Of a DNA stretch of 64,000 nucleotides, positions 9,093-40,186 are shown piece by piece. A program made the translations under genes and the position numbers. Numbering within the stretch: the stretch's first letter is position 1; each line of letters starts with the position of its first letter. Below the pieces are notes generated by a model. The model did no database searches. It saw nothing but the letters and a program-made list of their open reading frames with translations, and was not told where the DNA came from. The stretch covers positions 17,173 to 81,172 of the forward strand of contig CAIKMX010000037.1 of assembly GCA_903828655.1 (NCBI GenBank). The letters are read 5' to 3'. Source of the DNA: an uncultured archaeon (GTDB taxonomy: Archaea; Nanobdellota; Nanobdellia; Pacearchaeales; GW2011-AR1).

Positions 9093-10556
9093 ATGGCTAA
9101 AGCAAAACAAATCCAGATTGGTTCCATTGAAAAAGAGAAAAAATCTTTAGGTGAGAGGGAGTATCCTATAAAGATTGGACTTGAGATACATGGATATTTA
9201 GATACTGAAGAGAAATTGTTTTGTATGTGCAGGGCTAAATGTCCTGAGAATATTGATTGGCGTGAGGAAAAAGACAATACAAGAATTTGTCCTATATGCA
9301 CTGGCACTCCGGGAAGTAAACCTATGCTTCCTAATAAAAAAGCTGTTGATAACTTGATTAAGATTGCTTTGGTTATGGGATGTAATGTCAATTGTGGAAA
9401 AGAATTGGTTTGGCAAAGAAAGCATTATGATTGGGCGGATTTGCCTAAAGGATATCAGAATACTATTTCTGGAGCACACGCAGTTCATCCGGCTTCTAAT
9501 GGAAAGTTTCATGGAATTAGAATAACTGAATGTCATCTTGAGGAAGATCCTGCACAATGGAATCCTGAAACTGGTAAGATAAATTATAATAGAAGCGGCT
9601 CGCCATTGATTGAAATTGTTACTGAACCTGATTTTTATGATTCTGAGATGGTTGTTGAGTGGCTTAAAAATTTAATTAATTCTTTAAGCTACATAAAAGC
9701 GATAAAGAAAAATGCAGGAATTAAAGTTGATGTTAATGTTTCTACTCATGGAGAGAGAGTTGAGATAAAGAATATTAATTCTATTGAAAAGATAAGAAAG
9801 GCTATAGAATATGAAATTGTTAGGCAACTTGAAAATCATGAAAAGGGAATTGTACAAAAGCGTGAAACGCTTGCTTTTGATGAAAGACTTGGAAAGACAA
9901 TTAAAATGAGAGATAAAGAGGGGCAGGCAGATTATCGATTTATTCCAGACCCCGATTTGCCAGTTATTGTTTTGAATGAGAAGGAAGTTAAGAAAGTTGA
10001 AAAGGAACTTCCAGAAATGCCTGAAGTTAAACTTGATAAACTTTCTAAGAAATATAAAATTGACTCGGACAATGCTGAAATTTTATCTAGGAATTTAGAG
10101 TTGGTTGAGTTTTTTGAGGAGCTTTCTAACGAGGGGGTAGATGTTAAGAAGAATCTTTCTTGGATTACTGTTGAATTGCTTCGTGTATTAAACTATAACA
10201 AAAAAACTCTTGAAGATGATGATGTTGACATAAAACCAAAACATCTTGCTGAGTTGATTAAGCTTGTTGTTAGTGGAAAGATAACTCCTCTTAAAGCAAA
10301 ACAGGTAATGAATGATTTTGTTCCAAAATCTTTTTCAATAAAAGAGAAGGGAGATGTCGTTAGTATCGCTAAAGATGCAATTGAAAATATCTGTAAGCAA
10401 GTTATTAATGATAATTTGCATGTTGTTGATGAGTTTAAGTCTGGAAAAGAACAGGCTTTAAATTGGTTAATTGGGCAGGTTATGAGGTTAAGTGAGAGAA
10501 GAGCCGATTATAAAACCGCGAAGGATTGCTTGATTAAGTTGTTGAAGTTAACATAA
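9093..10556 (+). CDS. gatB: GatB/GatE-family aminoacyl-tRNA amidotransferase catalytic subunit
   Basis: 487 aa. N-terminus IGLEIHGYLDTEEKLFCMC...ICPICTGTPGSKPMLPN is the Cys cluster and GTPG motif of the GatB/E family. C-terminal YqeY-like tail. The length fits GatB better than the roughly 620-aa GatE, so its partner relationship to gatD is uncertain. Confidence 0.7.
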   Translation: MAKAKQIQIGSIEKEKKSLGEREYPIKIGLEIHGYLDTEEKLFCMCRAKCPENIDWREEKDNTRICPICTGTPGSKPMLPNKKAVDNLIKIALVMGCNVNCGKELVWQRKHYDWADLPKGYQNTISGAHAVHPASNGKFHGIRITECHLEEDPAQWNPETGKINYNRSGSPLIEIVTEPDFYDSEMVVEWLKNLINSLSYIKAIKKNAGIKVDVNVSTHGERVEIKNINSIEKIRKAIEYEIVRQLENHEKGIVQKRETLAFDERLGKTIKMRDKEGQADYRFIPDPDLPVIVLNEKEVKKVEKELPEMPEVKLDKLSKKYKIDSDNAEILSRNLELVEFFEELSNEGVDVKKNLSWITVELLRVLNYNKKTLEDDDVDIKPKHLAELIKLVVSGKITPLKAKQVMNDFVPKSFSIKEKGDVVSIAKDAIENICKQVINDNLHVVDEFKSGKEQALNWLIGQVMRLSERRADYKTAKDCLIKLLKLT

Positions 10557-11272: not shown

Positions 11273-11626
11273 TTATCTCTTGAGAACTCTTGCTTTCATT
11301 GTTCTTGGTTTTAGAAGATTCTTGAGATCTTCGAAAACTTGTCTTGCTTTGTCGTCGTTATTTCCTGTTGCATTGCAGGTGAAGATATCTAATTGTAGTG
11401 AATTCTTTTTTTCTGGCCAGGTATGAATTGAGACGTGAGATTCTGAAATAATAAAAACTCCCGTGAAACCAGCTTTGGGAAATTTGTAAAAACATCTTCC
11501 AACAATATGAAGCCCAGATCTTTTTATTATGTGTTCTGCTTTTCTTTCGAATAGTTTCTCGTCGAGAAGCAGACGTTTGTCTAAACATTCATAAAAGTTA
11601 GCTATAAAATGTATCCCCTCCATCAA
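11273..11626 (-). CDS. speH: S-adenosylmethionine decarboxylase proenzyme, SpeH type (pyruvoyl-dependent)
   Basis: 117 aa. ESHVSIHTWPE is the classic class-1b AdoMetDC self-processing motif. The size matches archaeal/Bacillus SpeH. Confidence 0.85.
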   Translation of the reverse strand: MMEGIHFIANFYECLDKRLLLDEKLFERKAEHIIKRSGLHIVGRCFYKFPKAGFTGVFIISESHVSIHTWPEKKNSLQLDIFTCNATGNNDDKARQVFEDLKNLLKPRTMKARVLKR

Positions 11627-12423: not shown

Positions 12424-13620
12424 ATGGGAAGAGGGTTTACATTTTTTGTTTTTTTGGCTTTAGCTGTTTCTCTTTTAGTTTTAGTTGGATTAAGGTTTAC
12501 GGGCTTTGTTCCTCTCAATACTCAAGACACTAGTCCTTGTACTGTTGATTTTAATGAAGATGGAGCTATTGATTTGCAAGATTTTGGAGTATTGAAGGAT
12601 AATTTTGGAGCTACGGATATCTCTGGAAACTATTCTTTTTGGAGAAGAGGTGATGCAAATCTTGATGGGGTAATTGATATTCAGGATTTTGGGTTGGTTA
12701 AGGGTAACTTTGGACAGAATGCTTCGGGGTGTCCGAATTTCTGTTCTAAGGTTATTAATTGTTCTGGAGAGATATTAGATGGTTGTTGTCCTGGAAAATG
12801 TTTGGGTATTGAAGACCTTGACTGTGTGCAAGATGGGGTTTTAATGAATTCTTTATGGACCGCGAACAGCGATGTTTTAGTGGATGGTGCATGGGAGAGT
12901 TCTTCGTGTTCTGAAGCGCTTAGTGTTGTTGATTCTGGAGAGGGGAGTGGAGAGTATGCTCTTCGGGCGGATTCTTCTAATAAAAATTATTGTTGTGTTC
13001 AGAATTCTTATGGATATCATTGCTATAATCTTTATGTGGTGAATAAATTTCCTAAACTTATGAGGTCCTGGGGGGGAGAAATGTACATTAACTTAAAAAA
13101 TGTGGATTTTTCTTATAGTGATGTTAATGGGCTTGCGGTGCTGGGGGCGTATAATACTCTTTCTAGTGGGAATAGAGATTTTACAATTCTGGCTCGTGCA
13201 AAAACTGGTGGAAGGGGGAATCTTTGTTTTAGTTATTTCTGGCCTTGGATGGGTTCTGCTGCAATGTGTGGCCCAGATCAAAGTGTTGATATCTCAAAGG
13301 CTATGTGGGAATCTTGGATAAAGGTTGAGTGGTGGTTTAGTAATAATTCAAATCTTTATGTTAAAGTTGGAAATACTAGTTGGAGTGATGACTGGCGTTT
13401 TGTTCCAGTTCAGAATCCTGACTCCACGCCTAATTACGTGGAGGTTTGTGATGCTTCGGCTGGTTGTGCTAGGTCCGGTTATTTTTGTGATAATGGGATA
13501 TGTAAGACGGATTTTGATAATGTGAGAGTTGGGTGGGTTAGTTCTTATCTTAATGGTAATGTTATGATTAAAAACGTAAAACTTTATGACGGTAATTTTA
13601 TTCCAGATAATTTACCTTAA
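12424..13620 (+). CDS. secreted Cys-rich protein with N-terminal tandem dockerin-like repeats
   Basis: A signal/TM segment (FVFLALAVSLLVLVGL) is followed by VDFNEDGAIDLQDFGVLKDNFG and GDANLDGVIDIQDFGLVKGNFG. Confidence 0.6.
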   Translation: MGRGFTFFVFLALAVSLLVLVGLRFTGFVPLNTQDTSPCTVDFNEDGAIDLQDFGVLKDNFGATDISGNYSFWRRGDANLDGVIDIQDFGLVKGNFGQNASGCPNFCSKVINCSGEILDGCCPGKCLGIEDLDCVQDGVLMNSLWTANSDVLVDGAWESSSCSEALSVVDSGEGSGEYALRADSSNKNYCCVQNSYGYHCYNLYVVNKFPKLMRSWGGEMYINLKNVDFSYSDVNGLAVLGAYNTLSSGNRDFTILARAKTGGRGNLCFSYFWPWMGSAAMCGPDQSVDISKAMWESWIKVEWWFSNNSNLYVKVGNTSWSDDWRFVPVQNPDSTPNYVEVCDASAGCARSGYFCDNGICKTDFDNVRVGWVSSYLNGNVMIKNVKLYDGNFIPDNLP

Positions 13621-16801: not shown

Positions 16802-17980
16802 ATGAAAAAGTGGTTGGTGGCTGTTCTTATCGTCGTTGCTTTGGTGATTGTTGTTTTCGTTGGATTTAAAATAACTGGCAATGTTCCTCTTTATGTAGGA
16901 GATAAGGGTCCTTGTGCTGTTGATTTTAATGAAGATGGAATTGTGGATATACAAGACTTTGGAATGTTGAGGGATAATTTTGGAATTGAGTCTGGAGCGA
17001 ATTTTTCCCAGGGAGATGCTAATGAAGATGGGATGATTGATATACAAGACTTTGGATTGTTGAAGGATAATTTTGGTCAGATTGCAGATGGTTGTACTGT
17101 TCCCCCTATTTATGTTATTGATTCTTGTACTGCAGATATAAATCATGATGGGATTGTGAATTCTGCGGATATGTATCTTGTAGGTGATAATTTGGATAGA
17201 AATGATTGTGCCTTGGTTAACAGAAGATGTAATGGGACGGATGTAAATCAAGATGGCGGAGTTGACATACAAGATTTGGGGATGGTTAAGGATCATCTTA
17301 ATGAAACTGCTATTAATTGTCCTGATTATGTGCCTCCTTGTGTAGGTGGTGATTGCAGTTTTCAATTCGAGGCGGGAAGTGATACTTATTTGATGCTGAA
17401 TGATTTTCCTTTTAAGGATGCTGTTTATGATTTAAAGATACTATACGGAGATCGGTACGGAAATTCTACGTTTTATGGAGTAGGAAGCGATAGTAGTAAT
17501 CGATTAGCGGTTCCAGTTTCTTCTTATTTGAAGAATCTTTCATTTAATGCAGGCACTGATAGTTATTTTGTGGCTAGCAATATTAATACCTCTGAGTCTT
17601 ACCTAATGAAAGCTACAAATTTCAAGATTGCTAGTGGTACTAATAAGACTACGATACAATATAGAAAGGCTGATGGTTGGGCTACATTGAAAGAAGATGC
17701 TGCTAAAGATGATACTGCAACAATTGGTAACGTTGGTTTAACTATTGGAAAGGTAGATTATCAACAAAGAACGGTAGTAATCAAACCAGATGCCGATGTA
17801 AGTTTTACTAGAATTTATGCTAGAGATGGGAGATATATGGATTTACCAACCACAGACAGATTTCCACGGGCAGTATATAATTTTGTCGTTTATAACCCTG
17901 CTGGGACTATTAATCGGAATGTAACTGCATATTGGGATCGTTCTCTTCCTACGCCTGTTGTTGCACTTCTTTATAATTAA
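16802..17980 (+). CDS. secreted protein with two tandem dockerin-like modules (four Ca-binding repeats)
   Basis: After the signal, VDFNEDGIVDIQDFGMLRDNFG, GDANEDGMIDIQDFGLLKDNFG, DINHDGIVNSADMYLVGDNL and DVNQDGGVDIQDLGMVKDHL. The C-terminal beta-rich domain is unknown. Confidence 0.6.
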   Translation: MKKWLVAVLIVVALVIVVFVGFKITGNVPLYVGDKGPCAVDFNEDGIVDIQDFGMLRDNFGIESGANFSQGDANEDGMIDIQDFGLLKDNFGQIADGCTVPPIYVIDSCTADINHDGIVNSADMYLVGDNLDRNDCALVNRRCNGTDVNQDGGVDIQDLGMVKDHLNETAINCPDYVPPCVGGDCSFQFEAGSDTYLMLNDFPFKDAVYDLKILYGDRYGNSTFYGVGSDSSNRLAVPVSSYLKNLSFNAGTDSYFVASNINTSESYLMKATNFKIASGTNKTTIQYRKADGWATLKEDAAKDDTATIGNVGLTIGKVDYQQRTVVIKPDADVSFTRIYARDGRYMDLPTTDRFPRAVYNFVVYNPAGTINRNVTAYWDRSLPTPVVALLYN

Positions 17981-22257: not shown

Positions 22258-22509
22258 ATTGGGTATTAATCTCTTTTTGGATGTTCGTATCCAGGAGAAG
22301 GACCAATTAGCTCTTGTCCTAATGGAAGTGGTGGTTCTGAAAGTGCTTTGGCTAAATTTCTCAATTGCCTGCTCCTCTCGGGTGAAGGAGGGCATGTTAC
22401 TTCCAAGTATCTATTTTGTGGAGGTAGTCTATTTGTGTAATCTGGTTCCATGATGTTGTGTCAAAATTTTAGTTTATAAAGTTAATCTTTTATCTAAAAA
22501 TTTATTGAA

Positions 22510-22704
22510 CATTGCCAAAGGTGAAATGCGGTTACCAAAAAGCTCTTCGCTCGCGTCCGCCTTTGGCAGGACGCTCGCTTTCACGCCGTTTTGTGAATGT
22601 GCCATTTCTTAACATACTTGGCTAAGTTTTTTGTTTAAAATATTTTGAGTTGCCAATATATGTAAGCTGTGACATTACCTAAAAGCGAGCCCGAAGGGCG
22701 AGCG
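22510..22704 (+). repeat. R1 modular intergenic repeat, copy d
   Basis: Has cattgccaaag...cgctcgcgtccgcctttggcaggacgctcgctttcacgccgttttgtgaatgtgcc...gttttttgtttaaaatattttgagttgccaa...gttacctaaaagcgagcccgaagggcgagcg. Confidence 0.7.
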
Positions 22705-22767
22705 TCTATATGGTTATGTATATTCTATAATATAAATTCTTATAAAGTCTGGCTGTTTGGGTTTTTC

Positions 22768-23223
22768 ATGCCAATCAATCCAATGATGTATAGAGTTTTT
22801 TTGCAGGATGCAGAAGGTCAGCCTGGAGCGTATGTGGTTGGGCATTGTATGATTCTTGCATGGAGTCATAGTCAACCTGATTGGAGACCTAGTTTAAGAG
22901 ATCAGTTGAGAATAGCTATTCGCAGCGCCGTTATTGGTCCAGGTTCTGAACCATTTGAAGATGGTCACTGGCCGATTAATTGTAACGGAAGGACTCTTGG
23001 AGTGGTTCATAAAAGAGAGGAACTTTCGGATAGAACTTATAATCTTGCTTTGGGTGAGGCCGTAGATTTAGCGAATGAGCTTACAGTTGAAAAAGGTAAA
23101 CCTTATGTTTTTATTAATGCAACTTCTCGAGGGGATAGGGTAGTGGCGGAGAGACTTGCTGGAATTGTTTACAATGAGGTTGTTGAGGCTGCTTCACCAA
23201 GTGCGAGAGATATCGGTGATTAA
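22768..23223 (+). CDS. hypothetical protein, compositionally GC-richer than its neighbours
   Basis: A 151-aa ORF from the internal Met. The track start at 22669 overlaps the R1 repeat. No recognisable motif. The nucleotide composition is visibly less AT-rich than the flanks. Confidence 0.45.
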
Positions 23224-24881
23224 TTAGTATTTTGTATCTTTTCTTTCGCAAAAGTCTTTGCAACAATTAGTGGAAATAATATTGTTGCGTCTCCGTGTAC
23301 TTTGACAGATTCGCCGTCAATTGCTATTTTGCCCCAGGAGACTGCTTCGTCTGGCCTCGCGCCTGAGTCGGATGCGTCGTATTCTTGTGCGGTGTTTATG
23401 AATACAGTATAATCTGCGCCGTTTCTGTAAAGATTTGCATTGCAGATTGTATGTTTAACAATACCTGCACCCAAGACTATCATGCCTGTTTTATCTTTAC
23501 CTATTGTGCTATTGTTTAATTCTGTAATATCTTCTACTAAGTCTAGAGTAAAGTTTGGATTCTTTGACATCTTGTAAAAATAAATCATATCTCCGATTGA
23601 ACCGTCCATTATTGCAGGGCAGATTACTGGAATGTTATTTTTTTGAGCCCAGTAATAAATTGATTGTTTGTATTTTTGGTTTTGTTTTGCTCTTGGATGA
23701 TCTTCAATTTCTTTTCCTAGAAGTTTTATTAGCTGTGATGGCGTTTTGATGTTTTCTTTATTTTTGTCTAATATTGGCAGAACCCATTCTTCAAACTCAC
23801 AATATCTTGAGTTTGGTACGAAAATATTGCCGATTCGGTTTATCCCTTTTTCTCTAAGTTCTTTTCCGCTTGCATTGAAACTTCCAAGCTTGAAATCTCC
23901 AATACACTTGATGAAATCTTCTTCTATTCCTCCTGCTGTTGTTACAAGAACGTCAATCATTTTGTGTTCAGCAAGATAACGGATGATTTCTCTATTTCCT
24001 GTTGAAACCATGTTTGAAGTGTATCCCAGATAAATGAAAACTTTTTCTTTTCTCATTTTGTTTATTATTTCTATTGCTTTTGAAAGGTTTGTTGCTTGAG
24101 CTCCAACAGTCTCAAAAGAATCTAGAATTTTATTGAAGTCTACGCCGTTGTTGAAATCGTAACCTTTGATTGTTTTTCCTTCTATCTCTTCGCTTTCTTT
24201 TAGGATTGCTTCTCTTGCTGCGTGTTCTTTTTCATTTTTTGAAATATTTGAATTGAGGGAATCCCACACTATGCTTTTTTCTTCTGGGAGAAGAACAAGC
24301 ATTTTGCTTTTTGTTATTAACTTGTATCCTTCTTTGGAGGGTTTGCTATTAACAATTCTTTTTCCATCTTTTTCTAAGATATATTCTTGAGAAATGAAAC
24401 TTCTTTCTTTACCATTAAATTTTTTTTCGAAGATGTTTACCCCCTTCGCACTAACGCATAAAGCAGAGAAGCCAATTACTCTTAATTTAGGATTTGATTT
24501 TTTTAGGTTACCTATTACATCTTTTAATTCAAAGAGTACTGATTTGTAAAATTCGGTTATTGTTTTATCAATTTTTTCTATGTGGTAGATGTGAATCCCT
24601 ATTTCTTCGTCTCTTGTATTGTCAAATATTGTGCTTTCGTTTAGTTCTGATTCTGCTAACTTTCCTTGTGTTAGTTTTGTCCAACCCGTTTTGTTTAGGG
24701 GAATTACTATACAATCTGCTACGACTTCTTTTCCTTCTTTGAAGATCATACCAAATTCGGGATTTTTTGCATACCACTTCGAGATAATTTCCTTAGTTAC
24801 AGGGCTATTGGTTGGATAGATCTCTTTGTCTTGCTTTAGTATTAGTTCAAAATCATTGTGGGTTATATTATATTTTTTCAT
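23220..24881 (-). CDS. dhs: deoxyhypusine synthase fused to a roughly 215-aa N-terminal extension of unknown function
   Basis: The C-terminal roughly 335 aa align almost residue-by-residue with eukaryotic/archaeal DHS ([95 protein letters not shown]). The N-terminal part ([17 protein letters not shown]...) has no DHS counterpart. Confidence 0.85.
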
Positions 24882-25430: not shown

Positions 25431-26492
25431 TTATTTCACTAACTCTTCAATTCTCTTTTTGAATTCTTCTAAACTATCAATTGGAATCATTGCACCTGTA
25501 GCTTCCTTATGGCCGCCGCCTGATGCGCCCTCGATTCCTTGAATTGCTTTTTCTGTAATTTCCTTTGCGTTTTTTCCTCTAATTGAGATGTTTATCTTGC
25601 CTTGATGTTCATTGTTATATGCTACGACTATTGTCTTTGTTGGATATTTGAAATATAACTTATTTGATATTTCTGAGGACATAGAGATTAGTCCTGAGTA
25701 TGAGAAGAACAATAAATGCTCATCCGTTTCCATATTTGCTTCTGCTTTGTCAACTTGTTTGTTTAGAAAGGTATTGTATTCCTTATATTTTCTATGCATT
25801 TGTCTTGTGCTGGGATTTTCTTCTAAAATGTCGTGAGCGTTTTTTGATTTTGAAAGGTATTTTATTAGGTTGATTACATTTGTTGTTGTGTCCATTAAAC
25901 CAAAATTGAGCATTCTTACTATTTTTCCTATATCCGTCGTGTATAAAGAATTGAAAGCTGATTGACCCGTTGATTCTTCTGGAAATATTTCAGGGTTTTC
26001 ATTTGAGAACTCTTCTGCAAAGTCTGGCATGTAAACGTCTCCGATACATCCAATCATTGCCAGCCAGAGATCTTCGCTTCGATTGAATATTTTCTGGGCG
26101 ATGTATGTTGTTGGTTCAGACTTTCCTGTTTTTTTATCGAATGAGTTAAAATAATGCACTTTTTCAAGTATTTCTTCTTCTATTGGAACATCGTGGTGGT
26201 CTATCCAAATAATGGGAATATTTTTTTCTTCTGCTTCTTTTATGAATTCTGCACTTACTCTTGGTTTGTCTAGAATTATAATCGTGTCTGGATTTAATTC
26301 ATTTATTTTCCTTGCGTATGCTTTTGTTAGTTCTGGGAATGACTTAATTGATACGCCCTTTCCTCGGCCTAAAGATCTTTGGATAATTAAAAAAGAGCAT
26401 AGACCATCAACATCGTTATCAAAGAAGAATAGGGGATTTTGAGATTTTTCTAATAGCTCTTTGATTTTTTCGTTTTGATGAGATGTTATCAT
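25431..26492 (-). CDS. DHH-DHHA1 phosphoesterase (NrnA/Pde2/RecJ-like)
   Basis: DNDVDGLCS (DHH motif I), IDHHD (DHH motif III) and the C-terminal GASGGGHKEATGA (the DHHA1 GGGH motif). 353 aa. Confidence 0.8.
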   Translation of the reverse strand: MITSHQNEKIKELLEKSQNPLFFFDNDVDGLCSFLIIQRSLGRGKGVSIKSFPELTKAYARKINELNPDTIIILDKPRVSAEFIKEAEEKNIPIIWIDHHDVPIEEEILEKVHYFNSFDKKTGKSEPTTYIAQKIFNRSEDLWLAMIGCIGDVYMPDFAEEFSNENPEIFPEESTGQSAFNSLYTTDIGKIVRMLNFGLMDTTTNVINLIKYLSKSKNAHDILEENPSTRQMHRKYKEYNTFLNKQVDKAEANMETDEHLLFFSYSGLISMSSEISNKLYFKYPTKTIVVAYNNEHQGKINISIRGKNAKEITEKAIQGIEGASGGGHKEATGAMIPIDSLEEFKKRIEELVK

Positions 26493-27529
26493 ACGATTTT
26501 GCCTGCTAAAATTTGTTCTCTAAATGAGTTTAGTTCTTCTTTTATAGAGGAAGTCCGGTTTTTTAATATTTGCTCTAAATCTTGGGAATCTGCAGTAAGT
26601 ATCTTGTTTAAATTTTCAAACTTTGCTACAATCTGATGAACTTCTTTTTCTGAAATAGGGAGGTGGGATAGGAATCTATATCCTCTCGGGGCGATTTCTT
26701 CGTCTAGATCTTTTTCGAGTACTAATCTTGAGATTGTTTCAATATCTAAAAGGCCGTTAAATGTTATGTTGGAAAGAAGGGTTTTTACTCTCTTTAGTGT
26801 AATCTTTGAGTAATCTCTTATTATCTCTTCTTCTTGCTTTTCTACGCCTTTTAACAATTCTCGGTAACGCATATTGAGTATGTTACCTTCATTACCTAAT
26901 TCAATAAAGTTTCTTTTTGTTGTTTCAGCTATCTTAAGCATCATTTCGGATCTTTGTATTACTCGGCAGACATCGTTTGTAGAGGTTAGTTCTGAAACTT
27001 CAAGGACATTTAATTTGTTCATCAAATCATTTAGTATTTCTCTTTGTTTTTCTAGAATTTGAAGTGTTGAGTATAAGTCTCTTAATAGTTCATCTGATGA
27101 CTTGAGGAATGTTTTTGACTGGCAGAAGTAAAGGGTTGTCTTCTTTTTTCTTTCTGAAACTGCAATTGCGAAAGTTTCTGCTTGTTTTGCAGTTCTCTCT
27201 GCTGCTTTGTGTCTTGTTCCAGTTTCGTTTGTATGAATTGTATTGTCTGGGGTCATTAGAACGTTCGCATATAGTATTCTTTTTAGATCTGAAGAGAGGA
27301 TTATTGCTCCGTCCATTTTGCATAACTCAAAGAGCTTTTGTGAGGTGAAACGGCAGTTTACTCTAAATCCTCCTTCGTATACTTTTTGCTCTTCAAGTTT
27401 TGGAGAGTGGAAGATAATCAGAGCTCCAAGGCCGGATCTTAGTATGTCATCTATGACGGTTCTTAATGGCGTTCCGGGTGATACTTTTTTAAGGTAATCA
27501 ATAAAAATTTTCTCTTTTTCTTCGCTCAT
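26489..27529 (-). CDS. diadenylate cyclase (DisA_N / DAC domain) with a helical C-terminal extension
   Basis: MDGAIILSSD and GTRHKAAERTAKQAETFAIAVSE match the DGA...GTRHRAA catalytic signature of DAC domains. The stop codon overlaps the ATG of the DHH gene (ATGA). Confidence 0.8.
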   Translation of the reverse strand: MSEEKEKIFIDYLKKVSPGTPLRTVIDDILRSGLGALIIFHSPKLEEQKVYEGGFRVNCRFTSQKLFELCKMDGAIILSSDLKRILYANVLMTPDNTIHTNETGTRHKAAERTAKQAETFAIAVSERKKKTTLYFCQSKTFLKSSDELLRDLYSTLQILEKQREILNDLMNKLNVLEVSELTSTNDVCRVIQRSEMMLKIAETTKRNFIELGNEGNILNMRYRELLKGVEKQEEEIIRDYSKITLKRVKTLLSNITFNGLLDIETISRLVLEKDLDEEIAPRGYRFLSHLPISEKEVHQIVAKFENLNKILTADSQDLEQILKNRTSSIKEELNSFREQILAGKIV

Positions 27530-33928: not shown

Positions 33929-34894
33929 GTGATGAATATGGATGTAAAAGAAAAGATTGAATTAATAAAACGGAATGCAGATGAAGTTCTTGGAGAGGAG
34001 AAACTTTCTGGATTATTAAAAGGAAAGAAACAACCTATTGTTTATTGTGGGTATGAGCCTTCTGGTGAAGTGCATATAGGACATTTTGTTACTGTTTTAA
34101 AACTTAAGGACTTTGAAGATGCAGGATTTAAAGTAAAGATATTACTTGCAGATTGGCATGCATGGCTTAATAGGAAAGGAGATTGGAAATTTATTGGAGA
34201 GCAGGTTAAGAAATGGGAGAAATCTTTTAAGAAAATGGGTTTGAAAAACCCGGAGATTGTTGTTGGGACTAGTTTTGAAAGAAAACCGGAGTATATTGAT
34301 GACGTTTTTCAATTAGCTGCTGTATCTACATTAAATCGAGGACTTCGTTCAATGCAAGGTGTTGCTAGAGATTTAGAAAATGCTAAAGTTACTCAGATAA
34401 TTTATCCTTTTATGCAGGTTGTGGATATGAAGCATCTTAAGGTTGATGCTGTTGTTGGGGGAATGGAACAAAGGAAGATTCATATGATTGCTGTTGAGTC
34501 TTTGAAAGATATAGATTACCCCGTTCCGGTTTTTGTTCATACTGCTTTGATTCCTTCTTTAAAGGGAGAGAACGAGGGAAAAATGTCTTCTTCATCTTCG
34601 GATAAGGACGCAATGATATCTGTTTCTGATTCTTCGGATGAGATAAAGAAAAAAGTTTCAAAGGCATTTTGTCCTGAAGGGCAGAAGAATCCTGTTTTGG
34701 ATATTGCTAGGATACTCATATTTCCTGTTTTTGATTCCGTTGAAATAAAAAGGCCGGAAAAGTTTGGCGGAGATGTGATTTATGGTTCTTATCATGATTT
34801 GGAAAAAGATTTTTTAGCCAAGAAATTACATCCGATGGATTTGAAGAAAGTTATTGGGGAAAAACTTGCTGAGATGTTTGAGAAGGTGAGATAA
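33929..34894 (+). CDS. tyrS: tyrosyl-tRNA synthetase, archaeal short form
   Basis: YCGYEPSGEVHIGHF is the class I HIGH motif and KMSSSSS is KMSKS. 321 aa. Confidence 0.9.
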   Translation: MMNMDVKEKIELIKRNADEVLGEEKLSGLLKGKKQPIVYCGYEPSGEVHIGHFVTVLKLKDFEDAGFKVKILLADWHAWLNRKGDWKFIGEQVKKWEKSFKKMGLKNPEIVVGTSFERKPEYIDDVFQLAAVSTLNRGLRSMQGVARDLENAKVTQIIYPFMQVVDMKHLKVDAVVGGMEQRKIHMIAVESLKDIDYPVPVFVHTALIPSLKGENEGKMSSSSSDKDAMISVSDSSDEIKKKVSKAFCPEGQKNPVLDIARILIFPVFDSVEIKRPEKFGGDVIYGSYHDLEKDFLAKKLHPMDLKKVIGEKLAEMFEKVR

Positions 34895-35517: not shown

Positions 35518-37818
35518 ATGAAAAAAGGGATAGTGATGATGTTTGTTTGCCTCGCTTGCTTTATTTGCCTTCTATTTGGGGTGTCTGTTGTTTCTGCAAG
35601 AATGGCGATTACGGAACCTTCAAGTGCATATAATCTCGGTGATAAACTTTATGTGAGTCTTGGAGGAATAACAGGGGCTAGTTCAGGAAACTTGAACATT
35701 AATCTTCTTTGCTCAAATCAAACTATAAATCTGCTTAAGATTTCCGCTAGAGCTTTTTCTTCTACACAAGAACAATCCTATTCTTTACCATATAAAGAAC
35801 TTACAAAAGAGGATTTAGAGATTGCAAATACTCGAGACGTTCTTGGTAGCTGTCAGATTACTGCGTCACTTGGTGCTGAACAGACCACAACAAGAATGTT
35901 TACGATAACAGATAGTGTTAGTTTGTCAAATCGATTTGATAAAATAACTTATAATCCTGGAGATTTGATAACCGTGACTGTTGAGGCGACAAAGGCAAAT
36001 AATCAGCCGCTTAATGGATTTTTAGAGACTAGTGACGCGGCAGTTATCAATAAAGAAGTTGTAAATGGAAGAGCGACACTAACTTTTTCAATGGCTCCAG
36101 ATACTAAGGCTGGAGATTATAATTTAGATGTTTTTGTTTATGATAAGGGCACAAGTGGAGAGACGTTAAATCAGGCAAATAGTTCTTCAACATTCAAAAT
36201 TAATCAGGTTCCTACGAATATACAATTGGGTCTTTCAACGAATCAGTTAGTTCCTGGAGAAGAACTTACAATTAGCGCAGATATCCTTGATCAAACAGGC
36301 GATAAGATAAAAGGGGCTGTTTCATTGAGTACTAATTCTTCAAATACTCGGGAGACCCGTTCAGTTAATGTTAACTCTGGCGAGTTCGCAAAGATGAAGT
36401 TTGCTACGAACACTACCCCTGGGATTATGTATATTAATGCGAAGTTTGCGGATATACAACAAACTGAGGAGTTTGAGATACTTCCTCTTGAAAAAGTAGA
36501 TTTTGAGTTTATAGATACGGTATTAGTTATTAAAAACGTTGGAAACGTTCCATATACAAAACCTGTAGATGTTAAGATTGGCGAGGGTATGCAAACTGTT
36601 CAGACCAATATTCCTGTTGGGGGAGAGCAGAAATTTAATTTGAAGGCTCCGACTGGAGAGTATAAGGTTGCAGTTAGTGATGGACAGTCTAATGTGGAGA
36701 GAAATATTCTTTTGACAGGAAAAGCGATATCTGTTAAGGATATAACTTCTGGTTCTATATTTTCAGATTATGCAGTTATATGGGTTTTCTTGATACTTAT
36801 CTTAATTGCGGCTGCAGCAATAATTCTTCTTAAGATGAGGAAAAGGCCTATGAGTTTAAAGGATTCAATGATGAAAAATGTTCCTTCTAAATTTTCAGAT
36901 ACCTTAAACTTTACAAATAAGTCTCCTGAAGCACAAAGTCTATATCAATCTGGAGATGGAAATGATGAGCATGGAATTGTTGATTTAAGAAAACCCCGAA
37001 TGATTGGTGCAGAGTCCGCGCTCGTTTTAAAGGGGGAGAAAACTCCTTCTGCAGTTATCTGTCTTCATGTGAAGAATTATTCGTCTCTTAAGCCGGCTGC
37101 CTCTCAAGAATTGGTTAAAGTTATTGGATTGGCAAAAGAAGAAAAGGGATTAGTTGATTGGAAAGATGATTTTGTATTTGTTATATTCTCTCCAATATCT
37201 ACGAAGACATTCAATAATGAATCCCATGCAATAATCGCTGGAATGGGAATGTTTGAGAGATTAAATGAGTATAACAAAAAGTTTAGGGATAAAATTGTAT
37301 TCAGTATAGGAATAACTTCTGGAGATTTGGTTGCTTCTCCTGAAGGAAAAATGTTGAAGTATACTGCCCTGGGAAATACAATTGCTCTTTCCAAGAGAAT
37401 AGCTGCTTCTGCTGAAGGACAGCTTCTTGTTACGGATCTTGTAAGAAATAAGCTTATGAGGGATGTAAAAGCGGATAAAGTTCAGGATATTGGAAGAGTG
37501 GCTATATACTCTGTAAAAGAAATCAAAGATCACACACAAAATAGGGCGAGACTTGATGAGATGATGAAGAGGATGAAGAGAGAAGATAATAGCGATAAGA
37601 ATAGTCCTAATTACACTAAAAGGTCTGATGCTCCTGGAATAAGCGGATCTTCACATAATCCTTATGCTAGAAGTACGCCGAGAACTCCAGTACATCCAGG
37701 GCATGTGAATCATAATGCAGCAAGCCATAATGCTCATAATCCTACCCATACTAATTCTTCTCACACGAATCATAATTCTCATCAACCTTCTCATCACACA
37801 AATGAGCATAAGAAATAA
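35518..37818 (+). CDS. single-pass surface protein with extracellular Ig-like repeats, a cytoplasmic degenerate class-III cyclase-like domain and a His/Asn-rich tail
   Basis: Signal peptide, then a beta-rich extracellular region of roughly 400 aa, then TM YAVIWVFLILILIAAAAIILL. The cytoplasmic part aligns along its length with CHD cyclases (AVICLHVKNYSSL / DDFVFVIF / IVFSIGITSGDLVAS / KYTALGNTIALSKRIAASAEGQLLVTDLV), but both metal-binding Asp positions are replaced. C-terminus HPGHVNHNAASHNAHNPTHTNSSHTNHNSHQPSHHTNEHKK. Confidence 0.6.
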   Translation: MKKGIVMMFVCLACFICLLFGVSVVSARMAITEPSSAYNLGDKLYVSLGGITGASSGNLNINLLCSNQTINLLKISARAFSSTQEQSYSLPYKELTKEDLEIANTRDVLGSCQITASLGAEQTTTRMFTITDSVSLSNRFDKITYNPGDLITVTVEATKANNQPLNGFLETSDAAVINKEVVNGRATLTFSMAPDTKAGDYNLDVFVYDKGTSGETLNQANSSSTFKINQVPTNIQLGLSTNQLVPGEELTISADILDQTGDKIKGAVSLSTNSSNTRETRSVNVNSGEFAKMKFATNTTPGIMYINAKFADIQQTEEFEILPLEKVDFEFIDTVLVIKNVGNVPYTKPVDVKIGEGMQTVQTNIPVGGEQKFNLKAPTGEYKVAVSDGQSNVERNILLTGKAISVKDITSGSIFSDYAVIWVFLILILIAAAAIILLKMRKRPMSLKDSMMKNVPSKFSDTLNFTNKSPEAQSLYQSGDGNDEHGIVDLRKPRMIGAESALVLKGEKTPSAVICLHVKNYSSLKPAASQELVKVIGLAKEEKGLVDWKDDFVFVIFSPISTKTFNNESHAIIAGMGMFERLNEYNKKFRDKIVFSIGITSGDLVASPEGKMLKYTALGNTIALSKRIAASAEGQLLVTDLVRNKLMRDVKADKVQDIGRVAIYSVKEIKDHTQNRARLDEMMKRMKREDNSDKNSPNYTKRSDAPGISGSSHNPYARSTPRTPVHPGHVNHNAASHNAHNPTHTNSSHTNHNSHQPSHHTNEHKK

Positions 37819-39046: not shown

Positions 39047-40186
39047 TTGATGATTATGACAAAGGAGAAAGAGATGAGTGTTACGCCTTGGGAAGTTTCT
39101 TCTGGTGATGGAAAGATTGACTATGAAAAGCTTGTGAAAGATTTTGGAACTACTCTTTTAAACGAGAAGATAGTTAAGAAACTTTCTAAATGTCATCCTT
39201 TGCTTCGAAGAGGGATTTATTTTTCACATAGAGATTTTGATAAATGGCTTGATGCTCATGAAAAAGGCAAGAAGGTCAGCGTTATAACTGGACGTGGACC
39301 TTCGGAAAAGATGCATCTTGGACATTTGGTCCCTTTTTTTGTTGCTTTGTCTTTGCAAAAAGAGTTTGGATGTGAGGTTTTTATTCCAATTTCTGATGAT
39401 GAGAAGTTTTTTGTAAAAGATAATTTAAGCTATGAAAAATCTTTAGAATATGCTCGGGATAATATATTAGACTTGATTGCTCTGGGTTTTGATGAAAAGA
39501 AGACTTTCATCTTTGAAGATTTTGTTTATACTAATATTTACACATATGCTGCAAGAATTGCAAAGAAAATAACCTACTCAACTGCTAAAGCTGCCTTTGG
39601 TTTGAAACCTGAGAATAATATCGGGTGGAGTTTTTATCCTGCAATGCAGGCGGCGCATATTTTATTTCCACAATTTTACCGAGGGAAGCACTTGTCTGTT
39701 GTTCCTGTTGGAATAGACCAAGATCCTTTTATCAGACTAACTAGAGATGTTGCTGAAATGAAAGAATTTAATTTGGATAAACCTGCGGCGTTGCATGCAA
39801 AGTTTATTCCTTCACTTTCTGGAGGAGCAAAGATGTCTTCTTCGGATTCTCTTGGAAATAATTTAATTTATCTTTCTGATTCTGCAAAAGAAGTTGAAAC
39901 TAAAATTAAGAAATATGCTTTTTCTGGCGGACGCGATACTCTTGAAGAGCATAGAAAGAAGGGAGGCAATCCCGACGTTGATGTTTCTTTTCAGTATCTT
40001 AAAATGTTATTTGAAAATGATGATTCTAAACTTCAGAAGATTCATGACGATTATAAATCGGGAAGGCTGCTTTCTGGAGAATTGAAAATGATTTTGATTG
40101 AAAAAGTAAATGCCTTCTTGAAGGAGCATCAGAAAAAAAGAGAAGAGGCTAAGAAGAAAATTGATAAGTTTGTGTTGAAGAATTAA
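39047..40186 (+). CDS. trpS: tryptophanyl-tRNA synthetase, archaeal/eukaryal type
   Basis: Has VITGRGPSEKMHLGHLVPF (HIGH) and KMSSSDS (KMSKS). 379 aa. Confidence 0.9.
   Translation: MMIMTKEKEMSVTPWEVSSGDGKIDYEKLVKDFGTTLLNEKIVKKLSKCHPLLRRGIYFSHRDFDKWLDAHEKGKKVSVITGRGPSEKMHLGHLVPFFVALSLQKEFGCEVFIPISDDEKFFVKDNLSYEKSLEYARDNILDLIALGFDEKKTFIFEDFVYTNIYTYAARIAKKITYSTAKAAFGLKPENNIGWSFYPAMQAAHILFPQFYRGKHLSVVPVGIDQDPFIRLTRDVAEMKEFNLDKPAALHAKFIPSLSGGAKMSSSDSLGNNLIYLSDSAKEVETKIKKYAFSGGRDTLEEHRKKGGNPDVDVSFQYLKMLFENDDSKLQKIHDDYKSGRLLSGELKMILIEKVNAFLKEHQKKREEAKKKIDKFVLKN

What the first reader, a model, noticed from the sequence alone, without database searches (positions are those of the whole stretch)
23220..24881. 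Deoxyhypusine synthase with a roughly 215-aa N-terminal extension
The C-terminal roughly 335 residues align essentially end-to-end with canonical DHS, including all conserved NAD/spermidine-binding blocks. The ORF carries an additional N-terminal domain of about 215 aa ([25 protein letters not shown]...[10 protein letters not shown]) with no DHS counterpart, and no internal stop or frameshift separates them. DHS is normally a single-domain enzyme of about 310-370 aa. A fused accessory domain could deliver substrate (eIF5A/aIF5A or spermidine) or regulate the enzyme. SpeH, which supplies the spermidine pathway, is also in the window.
Basis: seen in the sequence. Interest (0 to 1): 0.6.

Follow-up and report, generated by a model that had tools for sequence, protein, structure and literature searches.

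The report
Deoxyhypusine synthase fused to GNAT-like domain
A tiny symbiotic-type (DPANN) archaeon makes the enzyme that modifies translation factor aIF5A as one protein with an extra, uncharacterised acetyltransferase-shaped domain; the fusion recurs in relatives and hints at an unknown accessory step in this modification, but no function has been shown.

Summary
Window 23220-24881 (minus strand) is one uninterrupted 553-aa ORF. Residues 221-553 are a bona fide deoxyhypusine synthase (DHS): the curated DHS models pass, and all eight experimentally defined catalytic and eIF5A-contact residues are present. Residues 1-212 are an extra domain.

The fusion is not an artefact. Thirteen distinct fused genes (<90% identical) occur in independent DPANN assemblies, and both halves are under purifying selection.

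The extra domain folds confidently (pLDDT 86), and its structural neighbours are all GNAT acetyltransferases, led by protein N-terminal acetyltransferases. It matches no Pfam or NCBIfam model and lacks the GNAT acetyl-CoA loop (motif A) in 0 of 80 family members. It belongs to an unannotated family of mostly stand-alone ~215-aa proteins.

The family is repeatedly tied to DHS: as N-terminal fusions, as a triple fusion with a second, canonical RimI-like GNAT, and as three adjacent genes in the reverse order. Some stand-alone copies sit next to aRF1 or Pelota.

The nearest relatives (93% identical DHS) have cleanly deleted the domain, so it is dispensable in cis.

The most likely role is an aIF5A-pathway acyl-transfer or recognition module tethered to the DHS active-site gate. 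This is inferred, not shown. I rate it a new variant of a known kind, of moderate interest.

The parts
23220..24881 (-). Complete fused gene: 553-aa GNAT-like + DHS protein (stop codon 23220-23222)
   Evidence: ORF list; identical product on record from the source assembly; full-length orthologs P0001-P0007 at ~61% identity and 97-99% coverage
24246..24881 (-). N-terminal GNAT-fold domain, aa 1-212 (member of an uncharacterised DPANN family; motif A absent)
   Evidence: AF2 pLDDT 86, pTM 0.82; Foldseek top hits all GNAT-superfamily; 368 family representatives; no Pfam/NCBIfam/PDB sequence hit; motif A in 0 of 80 members; dN/dS 0.10-0.20
24573..24605 (-). Most conserved strand of the N-domain, aa 93-103 [11 protein letters not shown] (family signature G-[LI]-H-[IV]-Y-H-I-E-[KR]); putative active-site strand beta4
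   Evidence: H97 90%, Y99 84%, H100 88%, E102 80% conserved over 80-91 family members; placement on beta4 from the AF2 secondary structure; active-site role is inferred
24177..24245 (-). [quoted passage not shown]
   Evidence: pLDDT <50 from aa 213; alignment to DHS structures starts at aa 220 = residue 11; role of residues 11-17 as active-site gate from PMC10042821
23223..24221 (-). Deoxyhypusine synthase domain, aa 221-553
   Evidence: Pfam DS 380 bits; NCBIfam NF003052 393/380 and TIGR00321 340/304 bits; E 1e-114 to 1e-119 to solved eukaryotic DHS; E321, N357, Y360, D431, H477, L484, W516, K518 conserved
23328..23330 (-). Codon of catalytic lysine K518 (= human K329, forms the enzyme-butylimine intermediate)
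   Evidence: Alignment, mapping, function from PMC10042821
24882..25026 (-). 5' flank/promoter region shared at 90% identity with the unfused relative L001, ending at the same ATG AAA AAA start
   Evidence: blastn and junction inspection
25431..27529 (-). Conserved upstream neighbours DisA (26489-27529) and DHH/DHHA1 protein (25431-26492); this is synteny context, not shown to be functionally linked
   Evidence: NCBIfam DisA 325 bits; order DAC-DHH-DHS also found in L001, L003, L005, L015, L020 and L040

Best explanation
The gene encodes a real bifunctional protein.

Shown: the C-terminal two thirds is an intact, aIF5A-type deoxyhypusine synthase. By homology it transfers the aminobutyl group of spermidine via K518 onto a lysine of aIF5A.

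Shown: the N-terminal third is an independently folding GNAT-fold domain. It comes from an uncharacterised family whose close relatives are all in DPANN archaea and which normally exists as a ~215-aa stand-alone protein. The domain is joined by a short disordered linker directly to the DHS 'ball-and-chain' helix, which in human DHS gates the active-site tunnel.

Inferred: the GNAT-like module works in the same pathway as DHS. Most likely it is a protein-directed (aIF5A-directed) acyl-transfer or substrate-recognition unit, held at the mouth of the DHS active site. In some lineages it acts together with a second, canonical RimI-like GNAT that supplies normal acetyl-CoA binding. The acceptor would be an amine of aIF5A: its N-terminus, a lysine, or the new deoxyhypusine side chain.

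Shown: the fusion is optional. The module also works in trans as a separate gene, and it was recently deleted from the closest relatives' DHS.
For: DHS half:
- DHS equivalog models pass their curated cut-offs, while the SpeY and bis-guanidino-aza-nonane synthase models fail.
- All catalytic residues (E137, D243, H288, W327, K329) and eIF5A-loop contacts (N173, Y176, L295) defined in PMC10042821 are conserved.

Fusion is real and maintained:
- 13 distinct fused genes exist.
- 43 positions are invariant across 8 N-domains that are only ~50% identical.
- dN/dS is 0.10-0.20 for the N-domain and 0.04-0.09 for DHS.
- No internal start codon lies at the junction.

Fold:
- AF2 gives pLDDT 86 and pTM 0.82, reproduced in the full-length run.
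- The top 50 Foldseek PDB hits are all GNAT-superfamily, led by the protein N-terminal acetyltransferases Naa50, Naa10, Naa60 and Ard1.
- Distant family members hit Acetyltransf_9/_1/_7 weakly.

Likely a functional site rather than a spacer:
- E77 is 98% conserved; H97, Y99, H100 and E102 are 80-90% conserved on beta4; G137 and S139 are conserved on beta5.
- GNAT active sites lie between beta4 and beta5 (established GNAT knowledge).

Functional link to DHS in three independent arrangements:
- N-terminal fusions.
- The L011/L034 triple fusion N-dom + canonical GNAT (motif A RQRGIG) + DHS.
- The L016/L042 gene order DHS, then N-dom, then GNAT.
- 14 of 34 non-redundant close N-domain copies are DHS-linked.
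- N-dom followed by GNAT2 recurs in at least 5 loci.

Other context:
- Stand-alone copies abut aRF1 (L008, L010, L027), Pelota (L012, L013), aaRS genes and a ribosomal-protein methyltransferase.
- Precedent: the GNAT SSAT1 acetylates the hypusine residue of eIF5A (PMC8705083).
Against: - No biochemical evidence exists.
- The hallmark acetyl-CoA pyrophosphate loop (Q/R-x-x-G-x-G/A) is absent from 0/80 family members and 0/8 fused domains, whereas the neighbouring GNAT2 has it. Acetyl-CoA use by this domain alone is therefore doubtful.
- No sequence-level similarity to any characterised GNAT: hhalign probability 1.5-2%, and no PDB hit by profile.
- Most family members are stand-alone with varied neighbours, including the PolD operon (L047), and the domain is also fused to a 2-hydroxyacid dehydrogenase (P0129). 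The family is not exclusively tied to DHS or to translation.
- DPANN genomes are compact and rich in translation genes, so some adjacencies may be chance.
- The locus sample was seeded with motifs from fused copies, which inflates the 14/34 figure.
- The nearest relatives (93% identical DHS) lost the domain cleanly.
- No GNAT2 and no aIF5A gene lie in the 64-kb window.
- The full-length model gave no information on domain docking.
Confidence: 0.45

Rival explanations
1. The GNAT-like domain is a catalytically dead pseudo-enzyme. It serves as a docking, oligomerisation or regulatory module. For example, it might recruit aIF5A, a partner GNAT or the ribosome, or control the ball-and-chain gate of DHS, without transferring any group itself.
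For: - Motif A is missing in the whole family.
- The domain pairs repeatedly with a canonical GNAT, as in tandem-GNAT enzymes where one half is inactive (the tandem-GNAT analogy is from general knowledge of MshD and N-myristoyltransferase).
- It is attached directly to the gate helix.
- It is dispensable in the closest relatives.
- BCCIP-beta, a non-enzymatic GNAT-like protein, is among the fold hits.
Against: - A tight cluster of conserved polar residues (E77 98%, H97, Y99, H100, E102, S139, E159) at the canonical GNAT active-site strands is more typical of catalysis or specific ligand binding than of a scaffold.
- Most family members occur without GNAT2 nearby.
Confidence: 0.2
2. The domain is a small-molecule amine acetyltransferase acting on the polyamine side of the reaction. 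Most attractively it would acetylate 1,3-diaminopropane, the by-product released at the tunnel exit. That would pull the reversible DHS reaction forward and remove a product. Alternatively it would acetylate spermidine to regulate substrate supply.
For: - Serotonin N-acetyltransferase and Drosophila polyamine N-acetyltransferase are among the fold hits.
- GNATs that acetylate 1,3-diaminopropane exist (Dpa, PMC10267138; NATA1 preprint).
- Diaminopropane is seen near the exit of the DHS tunnel (PMC10042821).
- A Rosetta-stone fusion fits consecutive steps of a pathway.
Against: - The best structural neighbours are protein N-terminal acetyltransferases, not polyamine acetyltransferases.
- Motif A is missing.
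- Stand-alone copies sit next to aRF1, Pelota, aaRS or PolD genes rather than polyamine genes.
- No polyamine gene is adjacent in any locus examined.
Confidence: 0.15
3. The fusion has no functional meaning. In very compact DPANN genomes neighbouring genes often overlap by a few bases, so loss of a stop codon fused an unrelated neighbouring gene to DHS. The fusion then drifts in and out of lineages.
For: - Fused and unfused DHS interleave in the tree.
- There is a clean recent deletion in the nearest relatives.
- The domain is also found fused to an unrelated dehydrogenase and embedded in the PolD operon.
- 4-nt gene overlaps are common in these loci.
Against: - The association recurs in three different arrangements, including the reverse gene order and a triple fusion. 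Chance adjacency to one particular gene out of roughly a thousand does not predict this.
- Both halves remain under purifying selection in the fused state.
- The fused N-domains keep every family-conserved residue.
Confidence: 0.1
4. The fusion is an assembly or sequencing artefact: two separate genes joined by a missed stop codon or frameshift.
For: The window is presumably from a metagenome-assembled contig, and read-level data are not available here.
Against: - 13 distinct orthologous fused ORFs from independent projects share the same junction.
- There is no start codon at the junction.
- The linker sequence is conserved (...VW.YL......A.EAIL.ESEE).
Confidence: 0.01

Closest known systems
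Canonical deoxyhypusine synthase (human DHPS, e.g. PDB 1RLZ/8A0E; archaeal single-domain DHS such as 7CMC)
   Same: The C-terminal 333 aa align end to end (E 1e-114 to 1e-119 to eukaryotic DHS, 4e-91 to 7cmc). The catalytic Lys, the NAD/spermidine residues and the eIF5A-loop contacts are all conserved, and the N-terminal ball-and-chain helix is present.
   Different: It carries a 212-aa folded domain in front of the ball-and-chain helix; known DHS enzymes are single-domain proteins of ~310-370 aa. The window's DHS and its closest relatives (P0008) also have a 10-aa surface insertion ([10 protein letters not shown]...).
Protein N-terminal acetyltransferases of the GNAT superfamily (Naa50, Naa60, Naa10, archaeal Ard1)
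   Same: These are the best structural matches (Foldseek probability 1.0, E 3e-5 to 1e-3, TM 0.55-0.69 on the target) with the same beta-alpha-alpha-beta-beta-beta-alpha-beta-alpha-beta-beta order. A conserved aromatic-Pro motif in the alpha1-alpha2 loop (Y22-P23) and a Tyr on beta4 (Y99) recall the Naa50/Naa60 substrate and catalytic sites; this point is from memory and is a lead, not a test.
   Different: Only ~10% identity, with no Pfam, NCBIfam or PDB sequence hit. Motif A (Q/R-x-x-G-x-G/A) is absent. There is a 30-residue insertion (aa 64-92) carrying the invariant-like E77, and the domain is ~50 aa longer than NAT catalytic subunits.
SSAT1 (spermidine/spermine N1-acetyltransferase 1) acting on eIF5A
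   Same: It is a GNAT enzyme functionally connected to the hypusine pathway. It acetylates the hypusine residue and inactivates eIF5A (PMC8705083).
   Different: SSAT1 is a separate eukaryotic enzyme with canonical acetyl-CoA motifs. It is not fused to DHS, and no homology to the domain here is detectable.
Tandem-GNAT enzymes (mycothiol synthase MshD, N-myristoyltransferase, FemX)
   Same: The L011/L034 triple fusion places the motif-A-less GNAT-like domain directly before a canonical GNAT. This resembles enzymes in which a degenerate GNAT half shapes the acceptor site and the other half carries out the chemistry (the comparison is from general knowledge).
   Different: In the window only the degenerate half is present and it is fused to DHS, not to a GNAT. 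No sequence similarity to these families exists, and none of them appears in the top 50 fold hits.
SpeY / DHS-like homospermidine synthases of bacteria and DPANN archaea
   Same: They share the same Pfam family (DS), and some DPANN genomes encode them next to SpeD-like decarboxylases (PMC10407285).
   Different: The window protein scores 94 bits against the SpeY model (cut-off 450) but passes both DHS equivalogs. It also keeps the eIF5A-contact residues, and it is not clustered with the SpeH homolog, which lies 12 kb away.

Membership tests
Deoxyhypusine synthase (aIF5A/eIF5A-modifying) | Matches curated family models above their trusted cut-offs | tested here: met
   Pfam PF01916 380 bits (cut-off 27); NCBIfam NF003052 393.4 (cut-off 380); TIGR00321 340.3 (cut-off 304)
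Deoxyhypusine synthase (aIF5A/eIF5A-modifying) | Catalytic lysine forming the butylimine intermediate (human K329), plus H288, D243, W327 and E137 | tested here: met
   K518, H477, D431, W516 and E321 are present and invariant in 12 aligned relatives; residue roles from PMC10042821
Deoxyhypusine synthase (aIF5A/eIF5A-modifying) | Residues that hold the eIF5A hypusination loop (human N173, Y176, L295) | tested here: met
   N357, Y360 and L484 are conserved
Deoxyhypusine synthase (aIF5A/eIF5A-modifying) | Homotetramer and actual deoxyhypusine formation on aIF5A | not testable with these tools
   The monomer AF2 model of the full protein was poor for the DHS half (pTM 0.42). No aIF5A gene lies in the window.
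SpeY / homospermidine-type DHS homologs | Matches the curated SpeY or 1,9-bis(guanidino)-5-aza-nonane synthase models | tested here: not met
   NF001980 94 bits (cut-off 450); NF002699 133 bits (cut-off 500)
GNAT (Gcn5-related N-acetyltransferase) superfamily | GNAT fold (beta1-alpha1-alpha2-beta2-beta3-beta4-alpha3-beta5-alpha4-beta6-beta7) | tested here: met
   AF2 pLDDT 86 with the matching element order. All top-50 Foldseek PDB hits are GNAT-superfamily, probability 0.99-1.00.
GNAT (Gcn5-related N-acetyltransferase) superfamily | Motif A, the acetyl-CoA pyrophosphate loop Q/R-x-x-G-x-G/A between beta4 and alpha3 | tested here: not met
   0 of 80 family members in that region and 0 of 8 fused domains anywhere. 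The positive control GNAT2 has RQKGIG. The few pattern matches elsewhere lie inside helix alpha3.
GNAT (Gcn5-related N-acetyltransferase) superfamily | Sequence-profile match to a GNAT family model | tested here: inconclusive
   The window domain has no match. Among 80 members, 5 hit Acetyltransf_9, 2 hit Acetyltransf_1 (best E 1.7e-5) and 1 hits Acetyltransf_7, all weak. hhalign to the neighbouring canonical GNAT gives probability 1.5-2%.
GNAT (Gcn5-related N-acetyltransferase) superfamily | Binds acyl-CoA and transfers the acyl group to an amine | not testable with these tools
N-terminal acetyltransferases (NAT; Naa10/50/60, Ard1) | Closest structural class, with NAT substrate-loop and catalytic residues | tested here: inconclusive
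   NATs fill most of the top 40 fold hits, but TM is only ~0.45-0.53 on the query and identity ~10%. Residue equivalences (Y22-P23, Y99) could not be checked without coordinates.

The most novel reading that the evidence does not exclude
The GNAT-like family (alone or with the RimI-like GNAT2) is a previously unknown second-step enzyme of archaeal IF5A maturation. In these DPANN archaea it would acylate or acetylate the terminal amine of deoxyhypusine right after DHS makes it. This would create a new type of IF5A modification that takes the place of the hydroxylation performed by DOHH in eukaryotes and locks the otherwise reversible DHS reaction. Because motif A is missing, the acyl donor might not be acetyl-CoA.
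Probability: 0.1. Interest if true: 0.8.

Novelty: new variant of a known kind. Interest (0 to 1): 0.55.

Why it matters
DHS is one of the most conserved single-purpose enzymes shared by archaea and eukaryotes, and it has one known protein substrate. How archaea complete or regulate IF5A modification is still unclear. A recurrent fusion of DHS to an acetyltransferase-fold domain gives a concrete candidate for an accessory step or regulator of IF5A modification, especially since the domain is attached at the helix that gates the active site and some lineages add a canonical RimI-like GNAT. The candidate is easy to test: co-express it with aIF5A and look for a mass shift. It also puts a fold and a pathway context on an unannotated family of several hundred 'hypothetical proteins' from DPANN archaea. 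Finally, the natural pair of near-identical genes with and without the domain (window versus P0008/P0305) is a ready-made comparison. If the domain turns out to be inert, the finding is just a lineage-specific domain fusion.

Tried and rejected
- Artefact hypothesis: rejected on the basis of 13 independent fused orthologs and the absence of any start codon at the junction.
- 'Insertion in the window' versus 'deletion in P0008': the two loci share the promoter and ATG AAA AAA. The family's native N-terminus is MKxRxI..D, and L001 has only 49 nt of Asn-rich filler. I therefore favour deletion in the P0008/P0305 lineage, although allele replacement by recombination cannot be excluded.
- Sequence-based identification of the N-domain led nowhere: Pfam, NCBIfam, PDB phmmer/hmmsearch with 8- and 80-sequence profiles, and hhalign against the neighbouring canonical GNAT as a single sequence and as a profile.
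- Motif-A-like strings in 9 distant members were examined and dismissed, because they lie inside helix alpha3.
- The full-length AF2 model, run to see domain docking, was uninformative (pTM 0.42, DHS half pLDDT <50).
- The SpeY (homospermidine synthase) reading of the DHS half was rejected by the curated models and the conserved eIF5A-contact residues.
- A FESNov novel family shown next to dys in Nature 2023 turned out to be specific to Thorarchaeia and unrelated.
- The aminoacyl-tRNA-dependent transferase idea (FemX, L/F-transferase, Ate1: GNAT-like folds without motif A) was considered because of the aaRS, aRF1 and Pelota neighbours. None of those folds appears among the top 50 structural hits, so it is kept only as a remote possibility.
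- A look-up of the source contig by exact protein failed.
- No conserved neighbour was found across all stand-alone loci.
Full report
**1. The observation**

Window 23220-24881 (minus strand) is a single ATG-initiated ORF of 553 aa with no internal stop.
- Pfam DS (PF01916) covers aa 252-542 at 380 bits.
- The NCBIfam DHS equivalogs NF003052 (393 bits, cut-off 380) and TIGR00321 (340 bits, cut-off 304) cover aa 221-544.
- Solved eukaryotic DHS structures align from aa ~220 to 547 with E 1e-114 to 1e-119.
- The first ~212-220 aa match nothing in Pfam or NCBIfam.
- The same 553-aa product is on record from the source assembly (P0304, 94-kb contig).
- No ATG/GTG/TTG codon exists between aa 206 and 260, so the DHS cannot be translated separately.

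**2. The organism and the neighbourhood**

The window is ~36% G+C. The single-domain relatives of its DHS are annotated Pacearchaeota or Nanoarchaeota, and the genomes that carry the extra domain are Woese-, Pace- and Nanoarchaeota MAGs. It is a DPANN archaeon.

Upstream on the same strand lie DisA (26489-27529) and a DHH/DHHA1 protein (25431-26492). The order DisA-DHH-DHS is conserved in many relatives, and ProRS is usually nearby.

**3. Is the DHS half a real DHS?**

Some DPANN DHS homologs are SpeY-type homospermidine synthases (PMC10407285). Here the SpeY model (94 bits, cut-off 450) and the bis-guanidino-aza-nonane synthase model (133 bits, cut-off 500) fail.

The cryo-EM/mutagenesis study of human eIF5A-DHS (PMC10042821) provides landmarks, and all eight are present and essentially invariant in fused and unfused relatives:
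- Catalytic residues E137, D243, H288, W327, K329 map to E321, D431, H477, W516, K518.
- eIF5A-loop contacts N173, Y176, L295 map to N357, Y360, L484.

The window's HAAREAI (aa 220-226) aligns to human residues 11-17, the 'ball' that gates the active-site entrance.

**4. Is the fusion real and maintained?**

- Seven database proteins (P0001-P0007) cover 97-99% of the query at ~61% identity.
- Further fused ORFs were read directly from genome and metagenome contigs (L005, L011/L034, L014/L039, L030, L033).
- Collapsed at 90% identity, there are 13 distinct fused genes.
- The eight aligned N-domains are only ~50% identical but share 43 invariant positions.
- Nei-Gojobori dN/dS is 0.10-0.20 for the N-domain and 0.04-0.09 for DHS. 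dS is near saturation, so the values are rough but clearly below 1.

An artefact is excluded.

**5. What is the N-domain?**

*Fold.* AlphaFold2 on the 8-sequence alignment gives pLDDT 86 and pTM 0.82 with the element order beta-alpha-alpha-beta-beta-(insert)-beta-alpha-beta-alpha-beta-beta-beta. The domain folds the same way in the full-length run. Foldseek against the PDB returns 47 hits at E <= 1e-3, and the top 50 are all GNAT-superfamily. They are led by the N-terminal acetyltransferases Naa50, Naa10, Naa60 and Ard1, followed by serotonin and polyamine N-acetyltransferases (TM 0.55-0.69 on the target, ~10% identity).

*Sequence.* An exhaustive profile search of 1.84 billion representatives finds 368 relatives (67 at E <= 1e-30), mostly stand-alone proteins of 200-240 aa. 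Every named one is 'hypothetical protein' with no Pfam domain. Only distant members touch the GNAT Pfam models, and only weakly. Profile searches of the PDB and hhalign against a canonical GNAT see nothing.

*Conserved residues.* Family-wide conservation picks out Y22-P23, W36, G73, E77 (98%), the strand G-[LI]-H-[IV]-Y-H-I-E-[KR] (aa 95-103), G137-x-S139, G147, E159 and W206. The window's copy keeps all of these.

*Motif A.* The defining acetyl-CoA loop Q/R-x-x-G-x-G/A is absent in 0/80 members and 0/8 fused domains. The neighbouring canonical GNAT serves as a positive control.

In short, it is a GNAT-fold domain with a conserved polar cluster where GNAT active sites lie, but without the canonical cofactor loop.

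**6. Evidence that the domain and DHS belong together**

Three independent arrangements were found beyond chance adjacency:
- (a) N-terminal fusions in 13 genes.
- (b) In L011/L034, a 716-aa triple fusion: N-domain, then a second canonical GNAT ('GNAT2', Acetyltransf_1, motif A YRQRGIG, best sub-threshold NCBIfam resemblance RimI), then DHS.
- (c) In L016/L042, three overlapping or adjacent genes in the order DHS, N-domain, GNAT2.

N-domain followed by GNAT2 recurs without DHS in L013, L032 and L046. Of 34 non-redundant close N-domain copies, 14 are DHS-linked. That sample was seeded with motifs from fused copies, so the fraction is biased upward.

Stand-alone copies have varied neighbours. 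Several are translation factors or enzymes:
- aRF1 immediately downstream (L008, L010, L027).
- Pelota immediately upstream (L012, L013).
- Class I aaRS (L007, L008, L027).
- An SFM1-like ribosomal-protein methyltransferase (L006).

Others are not translation-related: L047 lies between the PolD subunits, and P0129 is a fusion to a 2-hydroxyacid dehydrogenase.

**7. Evolutionary dynamics**

In a neighbour-joining tree of DHS domains, fused and unfused proteins interleave. Unfused close relatives with the same DisA-DHH-DHS synteny leave no room for the domain (L020, L023). In the N-domain tree, DHS-linked copies fill most of one half of the tree in at least three groups, mixed with a few stand-alone copies.

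The clearest case is the window itself. Its DHS is 93% identical to P0008 and P0305 (347 aa, from two other assemblies, in the same 90% cluster). At the DNA level:
- The 5' flank and the first three codons match at 90% (window 25026-24873 = L001 4142-4295).
- The DHS body matches at 85%.
- The ~650 bp encoding the domain is replaced by 49 nt of Asn-rich filler.

MKKYNI... is the native N-terminus of the domain family, so this is best read as a recent in-frame deletion in the relatives. The domain is therefore not required in cis for DHS.

**8. Mechanism**

Shown: an intact DHS and a folded, selectively maintained GNAT-fold domain, joined by a disordered ~8-residue linker to the helix that gates the DHS tunnel.

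Inferred, with overall confidence ~0.45: the domain acts in the aIF5A pathway as a protein-directed acyl-transfer or recognition module, sometimes together with the canonical GNAT2. The reasons are:
- The NAT-like structural neighbours.
- The conserved His/Tyr/Glu cluster at the beta4/beta5 site.
- The three kinds of linkage to DHS.
- The translation-factor neighbours.
- The precedent that the GNAT SSAT1 acetylates hypusine on eIF5A (PMC8705083).

Rivals:
- A catalytically dead docking or regulatory module (0.20), favoured by the missing motif A and the pairing with GNAT2.
- A small-molecule amine acetyltransferase, e.g. for the by-product 1,3-diaminopropane (0.15). Precedents are Dpa and NATA1, and diaminopropane sits at the tunnel exit.
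- A functionally meaningless fusion in a compact genome (0.10).
- An artefact (0.01).

**9. Comparison with what is known, and novelty**

Full-text searches for DHS with acetyltransferase/fusion/archaea, with DPANN, and with GNAT/N-terminal domain found no description of this architecture. The one novel family reported next to dys is Thorarchaeia-specific and unrelated.
- The DHS half is an ordinary member of its family.
- The N-domain is a new, unannotated family of a known fold that fails one defining GNAT feature.
- The fusion, and especially the triple fusion, is a new architecture.

I classify it as a new variant of a known kind. Interest is moderate (0.55): it is a testable lead on an accessory step or regulator of archaeal IF5A modification, but with no functional evidence yet and with clear signs that the domain is dispensable and promiscuous.

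Noticed in passing
window 22261-23219: A ~960-bp G+C-richer island (0.38-0.46 against ~0.31 nearby) lies directly after the DHS stop and is absent from the close relative L001. It holds a 184-aa ORF (22669-23223, +) that overlaps the DHS stop by 4 nt. The ORF has no Pfam or Rfam match and only one distant homolog (P0303, 43% identity).
   Followed up: partly
window 25431-27529 (minus strand): DisA diadenylate cyclase (325 bits) overlaps by 4 nt with a DHH/DHHA1 protein that fails the RecJ cut-offs. This looks like a c-di-AMP synthase/phosphodiesterase pair, and it is syntenic with DHS across many DPANN contigs.
   Followed up: partly
window 11273-11626 (minus strand): A SpeH/AdoMetDC homolog (TTG start, 117 aa) passes TIGR03330, but no spermidine synthase is found in the 64 kb. 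Orphan SpeD homologs in DPANN can be arginine or ornithine decarboxylases (PMC10407285).
   Followed up: partly
window 41299-49779, 55542-61682, 53280-55478, 35518-37818: Very large ORFs (2826, 2046, 732 and 766 aa) have no Pfam domain at all. They are typical DPANN 'dark matter', possibly surface proteins.
   Followed up: no
window 12424-13620 and 16802-17980: Two proteins carry dockerin type I repeats, which is unusual in a small archaeal genome and suggests cell-surface or host-attachment assemblies.
   Followed up: no
window aa 393-406 of the DHS (about 23664-23705): A 10-aa insertion ([10 protein letters not shown]...) is shared only with P0008 among the aligned DPANN DHS. It sits in a loop that is short in human DHS.
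   Followed up: no
L011 52-2220 and L034 (716-aa ORF): A triple fusion of the GNAT-like domain, a canonical RimI-like GNAT and DHS in a Woesearchaeota MAG. The same three parts are separate adjacent genes in the reverse order in L016/L042.
   Followed up: yes
L008 6695-8221: The aRF1 gene next to a stand-alone GNAT-like gene is interrupted by an intein (Hint/Intein_splicing domains).
   Followed up: no
L047 5001-5648; protein P0129: The GNAT-like family also occurs between the PolD DP1 and DP2 genes. It is also fused to the C-terminus of a 2-hydroxyacid dehydrogenase, so it is a promiscuous module.
   Followed up: partly
window DHS domain versus PDB: This DPANN DHS is markedly closer to eukaryotic DHS (E ~1e-114 to 1e-119) than to a shorter (312-aa) solved chain labelled only 'Probable deoxyhypusine synthase' (8put, 4.5e-44), whose organism the search output did not give.
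   Followed up: no
window 33929-34894 and 39047-40186: Two class Ib (Trp/Tyr-type) aminoacyl-tRNA synthetase genes lie 4 kb apart. GatD/GatE-type amidotransferase subunits are at 6288-7607 and 9093-10556.
   Followed up: no
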